From Eledone cirrhosa (taxonomy: Eukaryota): a stretch of DNA of 64,000 nucleotides. Location of the stretch: positions 19,158,001 to 19,222,000 of the forward strand of contig OZ024763.1 in assembly GCA_964016885.1 (NCBI GenBank), given 5' to 3'. Below, piece after piece: positions 42,013 to 42,050 of the stretch; position 1 is the first letter of the stretch, and each line of letters begins with the position of its first letter. A model generated the notes under the pieces. It had not been told where the DNA came from. It did not search any database and saw nothing but the letters and a program-made list of their open reading frames with translations. Position numbers and translations under genes: made by a program.

Positions 42013-42050
42013 CCTTTTGAAAAGCAGAAGAACTGCGAAACCGGTAAAGG
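42013..42050 (+). ncRNA. Minimal hammerhead with U3:A8 compensatory core
   Basis: cctt-TTGAAAA-gcag aagaa ctgc-GAAA-ccgg-TA-aagg, then AATAAA; within repeat 41980-42187. Confidence 0.75.

What the first reader, a model, noticed from the sequence alone, without database searches (positions are those of the whole stretch)
42013..42050. U3:A8 compensatory hammerhead core, present twice
Seen: TTGAAAA replaces CTGANGA inside otherwise perfect stems (cctt/aagg, gcag/ctgc, palindromic ccgg, GUA site); the same core recurs at 53102-53137 on the minus strand. Known: C3 and G8 form a Watson-Crick pair in the active fold, so U3:A8 preserves it. Inference: the double change suggests selection for catalysis, and searches requiring CUGANGA would miss this family.
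Basis: partly seen in the sequence, partly recalled or inferred. Interest (0 to 1): 0.75.

Follow-up and report, generated by a model that had tools for sequence, protein, structure and literature searches.

The report
Penelope retroelement hammerhead, U-A core
These are two short copies of a very abundant Penelope-type jumping gene whose end carries a likely self-cutting RNA motif; its swapped U-A core pair is real and shared by several related families, but that variant is already published.

Summary
42013-42050 (+) is a type I hammerhead with U3:A8 in place of C3:G8. The second copy (53137-53102, -) has only a 3-bp stem I. Both are 5'-truncated ends (pLTR stubs) of a young Neptune/Nematis-type Penelope-like retroelement: 12,968 exact core matches in the genome, none with C3:G8. 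'Present twice' is therefore not independent evidence, and the two copies face each other, so they cannot pair up on one RNA. The selection argument is supported by other data. At least six more families keep U3:A8 with different stems, and genome-wide the paired states (C3:G8 20,902; U3:A8 about 20,000) far exceed the mismatched ones (1,106 and 1,028; controls 996 and 627). Natural U3-A8 is in print (Perreault 2011; Cervera 2014, in Penelope-like elements), and this scan noted it before on other DNA. It likely works as a slow, dimer-dependent cutter of the element's RNA. Most stubs start about 70 nt before the cut site, so they were likely copied from uncut RNA. Cleavage is untested. Verdict: new member of a known kind.

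The parts
41975..42187 (+). Copy 1: 5'-truncated pLTR stub of a Penelope-like element, followed by (TA)n; subfamily with the 4-bp stem I
   Evidence: the same unit flanks the RT-endonuclease ORF in L031
41974..41981 (+). Main cluster of stub 5' ends in the family (-43 to -36 from U3); inferred RNA start
   Evidence: 31 of 41 copies; 34 of 78 BLAST starts at -43 to -39
42005..42008 (+). UCAA that can pair with U3-U4-G5-A6 (predicted competing hairpin)
   Evidence: pair probability about 0.13 in copy 1 and 0.33 in copy 2; TCAA also precedes the core in sister families B and C
42013..42016 (+). Stem I, 5' strand (CCUU)
   Evidence: predicted pair probability about 0.47
42017..42023 (+). Core U3 U4 G5 A6 A7 A8 A9 (U3 = 42017, A8 = 42022)
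42024..42036 (+). Stem II GCAG/CUGC with loop AAGAA; G10.1-C11.1 kept
   Evidence: pair probability 0.86
42037..42040 (+). G12 A13 A14 A15.1
42040..42045 (+). Palindrome ACCGGU: helix III, predicted to form only between two copies
   Evidence: 6-bp self-duplex -8.3 kcal/mol; the monomer would need a 2-nt loop
42044..42046 (+). GUA triplet; predicted cut between 42046 and 42047
   Evidence: position by hammerhead numbering (established knowledge); cleavage not tested
42047..42050 (+). Stem I, 3' strand (AAGG)
42121..42142 (+). Small hairpin at the family's short 3' end (about 42125); likely a reverse-transcription start signal
   Evidence: 24 of 78 ends at +108 and 41 of 78 at +170; similar hairpin in sister families, in 3 of 4 sister copies folded
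52963..53173 (-). Copy 2: pLTR stub in (TA)n, from the more diverged subfamily with the 3-bp stem I
53102..53137 (-). Hammerhead of copy 2 (U3 = 53134; predicted cut between 53105 and 53104)

Best explanation
The motif is a type I hammerhead with a U3:A8 core in the terminal repeat (pLTR) of an abundant Penelope-like retroelement, and it likely cuts the element's RNA slowly after GUA, only when two copies pair through their ACCGGU palindromes. Shown: the motif, its place in both pLTRs of full-length elements about 4.7 kb apart, its fixation in the family, and the 3:8 pairing rule across families. Inferred: a transcript spanning both pLTRs folds into the dimer and is cut to unit length, giving ends that could be ligated into a circle (Cervera's model). 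Also inferred: cutting is slow or conditional, because most short copies, including the two in this window, start about 70 nt upstream of the cut site and so were copied from uncut RNA. The window's two copies are inert stubs on opposite strands.
For: L031 has an inverted pLTR, a 5' pLTR, ORFs with RT (YLDD) and GIY-YIG, a 3' pLTR and then (TA)n. Sense hammerheads lie 4,685, 4,689 and 4,679 nt apart in L031, L178 and L184. There are 12,968 U3:A8 and 0 C3:G8 matches for this stem II. Across families: U3:A8 7,170 more (control 1,330), C3:G8 20,902 (1,518), C3:A8 1,106 (996), U3:G8 1,028 (627). At least six other families, grouped by eye, keep U3:A8, G10.1-C11.1 and GAAA while stems I-III, N7 and N17 change; 28 of 30 loci have 3 or more stem II pairs (some loci overlap). 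Sister family B (56-63% protein identity) has the motif at both ends of its ORFs. The dimer helix is favourable and the monomer is not. Literature passages: U3-A8 natural and active in vitro (PMC3088659); U3-A8 in PLE pLTRs with low, dimer-dependent activity of PLE hammerheads (PMC4209133); uncut RNA is the main insertion substrate (PMC11167929).
Against: No cleavage was measured. Folding is no better than shuffles. Stem I is only 3 bp in about half of the family (6,522 flank-anchored 4-bp-type matches versus 12,968 core matches) and only 2 bp in sister families B and C. U3 is predicted to pair with A17 (probability 0.37) or with the upstream UCAA. In a deep mutational scan of a type III hammerhead only the G:C swap rescued this pair (PMC9901934 passage). 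5' ends near the cut site form a plateau over -4 to 0, not a peak. The family counts are not phylogenetically independent events; I built no tree.
Confidence: 0.8

Rival explanations
1. The fold is real and conserved but is kept as a structural or protein-binding element of the pLTR (packaging, RT positioning), and cutting is negligible in vivo.
For: Stem I shrinks to 2 bp in families B and C while the core stays. Every sampled long copy reads through the cut site, and most stubs start upstream of it. Hammerhead mutants did not affect insertion in vitro in the anole element, and no RNA reads began or ended at its cut site (PMC11167929).
Against: The 3:8 Watson-Crick pair is a feature of the active fold (PMC3884650 passage). 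NUH and the palindrome are kept across families, which fits a need for chemistry.
Confidence: 0.13
2. U3:A8 in this family is a neutral or decayed state of the founder, amplified by hitch-hiking; the ribozyme is dead.
For: A young family (2.7% and 5.1% pairwise divergence within its two subfamilies) copies whatever its founder had. Only the G:C swap rescued in one mutational scan.
Against: Mismatched 3:8 states form no large family in the first 100 rows, and their totals sit near control. U3:A8 persists through complete turnover of the stems.
Confidence: 0.04
3. The GUAAAG at the cut site, or GUGAGA 38 nt before the core, is a splice donor, so that splicing of a 5'-UTR intron competes with, or removes, the ribozyme.
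For: A donor-like sequence and a pyrimidine tract ending in TAG at 42141 are present. TAG is also present in families B and C. Penelope of D. virilis has an intron abutting its hammerhead.
Against: No genomic copy has either spliced join: the 2 hits keep GTAAAG, and 0 of 182 local copies of the downstream anchor show it. The upstream donor is not seen in B or C. The TAG is equally explained as one arm of a hairpin.
Confidence: 0.08

Closest known systems
U3-A8 min-hammerheads in pLTRs of Cercyon PLEs, Schistosoma mansoni (Cervera and de la Pena 2014, PMC4209133; parts 1-2 of 4 of the text read)
   Same: Type I, U3-A8 core, in the pLTR, mostly solo copies, some in close opposite-strand pairs, predicted dimers.
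   Different: There about 1,300 heterogeneous hits with a 7-8 bp helix II, an extra base before stem II and no helix III. Here about 13,000 near-identical copies with a 4-bp helix II, no extra base, a CCGG palindrome, and a Neptune/Nematis-type element.
PLE hammerheads with a small palindromic helix III (D. virilis Penelope, rotifers, shrimps, mosquitoes; same paper)
   Same: Short helix I, palindromic helix III, high sequence conservation in a young family.
   Different: No U3-A8 core is reported for them in the passages read.
Natural core variants of Perreault et al. 2011 (PMC3088659; passages read)
   Same: C3/G8 to U3/A8 covariation in several natural hammerheads; cited as active in vitro.
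   Different: Described as rare; here U3:A8 matches are about as many as C3:G8 matches for one descriptor shape.
Neptune/Nematis clades of C-terminal-endonuclease PLEs (Craig et al. 2021, PMC8557442; passages read, supplement searched)
   Same: GxKF, DKG, RT, CX2-5CxxC linker, GIY-YIG, (TA)n targets, partial tandems, inverted 5' copies, optional tail, ORF1 set off by a frameshift.
   Different: The tail here is about 60 nt, not 30-40; the clade was not fixed by a tree.

Membership tests
Hammerhead ribozyme, type I | Core U4 G5 A6 N7 . A9 ... G12 A13 A14 A15.1 ... U16.1 H17 | tested here: met
Hammerhead ribozyme, type I | Watson-Crick pair between positions 3 and 8 | tested here: met
   U3:A8; paired states dominate genome-wide. 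The literal C3/G8 consensus is not met.
Hammerhead ribozyme, type I | Three helices, open at stem I | tested here: met
   Stem I 4 bp (copy 1) or 3 bp (copy 2), stem II 4 bp, helix III as a palindrome
Hammerhead ribozyme, type I | Stem sequences change across relatives while pairing is kept | tested here: met
   Six further families with different paired stem II; stem I variants ACAATC/GATTGT and ATAGTC/GACTAT within one family. No tree-aware statistic was run.
Hammerhead ribozyme, type I | Match to an Rfam hammerhead model | tested here: not met
   None among 7 matches at E<=10. The window's canonical hammerheads were also not among the 150 of 306 rows shown, so U3:A8 alone need not be the cause.
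Hammerhead ribozyme, type I | Loop I-loop II tertiary contact | not tested
   No distal stem I seen by eye; minimal PLE hammerheads are described without one
Hammerhead ribozyme, type I | Site-specific self-cleavage | not testable with these tools
   Needs an assay
Penelope-like element, endonuclease-bearing | RT followed by C-terminal GIY-YIG, flanked by direct pLTRs | tested here: met
   L031, L178, L184; RVT_1 scores just under its curated cut-off, GIY-YIG above
Penelope-like element, endonuclease-bearing | 5' truncation, inverted 5' copies, two alternative 3' ends (tail), microsatellite targets | tested here: met
   30 of 30 loci end in (TA)n
Neptune/Nematis clades | CX2-5CxxC linker before the endonuclease; GxKF and DKG motifs | tested here: met
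   CGRSNCGTC at 645, GLKF at 49, DKG at 155; feature list from PMC8557442
Neptune/Nematis clades | Placement in an RT tree with reference elements | not tested
   No reference proteins were fetched
Non-LTR retrozyme | Short non-coding tandem units with one hammerhead each | tested here: not met
   The unit is the pLTR of a coding element and is dispersed

The most novel reading that the evidence does not exclude
In this genome U3:A8 is not a rare variant but a second main hammerhead dialect, about as common as C3:G8, and it is a built-in brake: U3 can be captured by A17 or by an upstream UCAA, so the element's RNA stays uncut until two copies meet. The ribozyme would then act as a tandem or copy-number sensor, and the genome's thousands of stub ends record which RNAs were still uncut when copied.
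Probability: 0.2. Interest if true: 0.6.

Novelty: new member of a known kind. Interest (0 to 1): 0.27.

Why it matters
The variant itself is known. What this genome adds is a natural two-by-two test of the 3:8 pair over tens of thousands of sites, and a warning that CUGANGA-only censuses could miss about half of the matches of this descriptor shape here. A young family with intact copies is also a convenient substrate for the open question of what hammerheads do for Penelope-like elements.

Tried and rejected
Rfam: no hammerhead match; the MALAT1 hit (E 0.76) is taken as chance. Folding z-scores were uninformative. Spliced copies: none. Footprint of cleavage in genomic 5' ends: 328 hits in a 6-nt window at the cut site versus 67 in a control window 23 nt upstream. 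But the ends spread evenly over -4 to 0 (19, 15, 14, 10 and 13 ends carry 0 to 4 matching upstream letters), so stalling at the fold or early abortion explains it as well: inconclusive. A dimer between the window's two copies is rejected because they lie on opposite strands 11 kb apart. No host gene or RT fragment was tied to the window copies (tblastn listed no diverged window hit; exons were not searched). No tree of U3:A8 versus C3:G8 families was built, so single or repeated origin is open. Not held and not seen: Lunse 2017, Przybilski and Hammann 2007, Martick and Scott 2006; Lunse 2017 may already cover such families. Paper searches for U3-A8 wording and for cephalopod PLE hammerheads gave no paper on this family; the library lacks most subscription papers, and Repbase could not be checked. 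The bioRxiv paper on retrozymes was read in part 1 of 5 only, and its supplements were not seen.

Full report
Observation. The letters are as described. At 42013-42050 the window reads stem I CCTT, core TTGAAAA, stem II GCAG-AAGAA-CTGC, GAAA, CCGG, TA, AAGG. The second copy at 53137-53102 has the same core but only three stem I pairs. A strict descriptor finds these two sites and none in 200 shuffles. Folding energy adds nothing (z -0.05 to -1.10), and Rfam lists no hammerhead over the site.

What carries it. The motif lies in a unit of about 210 nt that occurs twice in the window, 96.7% identical. The genome (3.0 Gb) holds 12,968 exact matches to the U3:A8 core with this stem II and none with C3:G8. 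Picked by flanks alone, 98 of the first 100 listed copies have TTGAAAA, and the other two are changed at A6 or A9. All 30 best loci end in (TA)n, and many have an inverted partial copy at their 5' side. Locus L031 shows the whole element: inverted repeat, 5' repeat, coding region with RT and GIY-YIG domains, 3' repeat, (TA)n. The protein has GLKF, DKG, YLDD and a CX4CX2C linker, which PMC8557442 gives for Neptune and Nematis elements; the nearest Atlas clusters carry GIY-YIG and RT families. Two alternative 3' ends, +108 and +170 from U3 (24 and 41 of 78 hits), match the 'tail' that PMC11167929 ties to two RT start sites. The window's copies are therefore 5'-truncated pLTR stubs of a Penelope-like element. 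They belong to two subfamilies: one with a 4-bp stem I (14 copies, 2.7% pairwise) and one with a 3-bp stem I (45 copies, 5.1%); 4 more were unassigned. That sample was chosen to enrich the second type and mostly by its core.

Is U3:A8 selected? Two copies of one young family cannot say. Single changes in the family are rare and look like decay: 5 U3C and 5 A8G copies among the first 100 rows. The comparison across families is stronger. With a family-free pattern, U3:A8 gives 7,170 further matches (control 1,330; stem II starting GC excluded), C3:G8 20,902 (1,518), C3:A8 1,106 (996) and U3:G8 1,028 (627). Caveats: some sites are counted twice, the C3:G8 list is rich in tandem arrays, and 5 of the U3:G8 rows come from an unrelated stretch of this element's own 3' UTR. 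By eye the U3:A8 rows fall into at least six more families with unrelated but paired stem II, varying N7 and N17, and mostly self-complementary helix III; 28 of 30 fetched loci have three or more stem II pairs (several overlap). Family B is a sister element, 56-63% identical in protein, with the motif at both ends. So the pair is kept while its surroundings turn over. I built no tree, so the number of independent origins is unknown.

How it likely works. Helix III would need a 2-nt loop in a monomer but forms a 6-bp duplex (-8.3 kcal/mol) between two copies. Full-length elements have two sense copies about 4.7 kb apart (3 elements measured), so one transcript could supply both. Cutting after GUA at both would give a unit-length RNA, which could be circularised, as proposed in PMC4209133; this step is inferred. 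Several signs point to slow cutting: short stem I, only 2 bp in families B and C; a predicted U3-A17 pair (0.37) and a UCAA:UUGA hairpin (0.13-0.33) that compete with the active fold; and stub 5' ends clustered at -43 to -36 from U3, about 70 nt before the cut (31 of 41), which fits copying of an uncut RNA to its start. At most 328 copies begin near the cut site, and those ends form a plateau, not a peak. This agrees with the anole element, where uncut RNA is the main substrate. Against activity: one mutational scan found only the G:C swap to rescue this pair, whereas Perreault et al. cite the U-A pair as active. The window's two copies face each other 11 kb apart, so a read-through RNA would hold one sense and one antisense copy; they are probably inert.

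Comparison and novelty. Natural U3-A8 covariation was reported by Perreault et al. 2011 and in PLE repeats of S. mansoni, about 1,300 hits, by Cervera and de la Pena 2014. This scan has noted the same variant in other windows, two of them in this genome; no note overlaps this family by sequence. The finding is a new, very abundant member of a known kind. The genome-wide 3:8 table is the most useful addition. The animal group is not established here; hammerhead numbering is recalled from established usage.

Scores: interest 0.27; best explanation 0.8; novel case (U3 as a brake, ribozyme as a tandem sensor) probability 0.2, interest 0.6.

Noticed in passing
L178:3353-6816 (G000:C2), L031:1384-4846: Intact copies have two overlapping frames, a 409-aa ORF1 and a 775-aa RT-endonuclease frame at -1, with an in-frame T TTT TTA slippery heptamer in the overlap in all 15 loci chosen for the 775-aa frame. 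Likely a programmed -1 frameshift; a frameshifted ORF1 is noted for PLEs in PMC8557442. Family B has G GGA AAA in its overlap.
   Followed up: partly
window 42121-42142; L158:2602-2645, L167:5155-5198, L168:5093-5136: A small hairpin with changing but paired arms sits at the short 3' end in this family and in sister families B and C; one of two B copies folded otherwise. Candidate RT start signal.
   Followed up: partly
window 26115+, 31166+, 41170+, 43577-, 43718+, 44113-, 52077-: Seven canonical CTGATGA type I hammerhead motifs of other repeat families, most with 8-bp stem I and palindromic helix III; 43577 and 43718 form a back-to-back pair.
   Followed up: no
G000:C1:5738326-5752334 and C1:14044535-14051131: Long tandem arrays with a 466-469-nt period and one C3:G8 hammerhead per unit, retrozyme-like.
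   Followed up: no
window 52756-52827 (+) and 39124-39181 (-): tRNA-like matches above the Rfam cut-off (35.2 and 31.2 bits), probably heads of SINEs.
   Followed up: no
L035:5944-7120: A stub of this family sits directly in the RT frame of a different Penelope-like element.
   Followed up: no
L036 and L037: Two copies carry the same internal deletion between short AGG repeats just after the cut site; not a splice product.
   Followed up: partly
window 42012-42013 versus 53139-53138: The more uniform subfamily has a fourth stem I pair where the more diverged one has a mismatch; the window holds one copy of each.
   Followed up: partly
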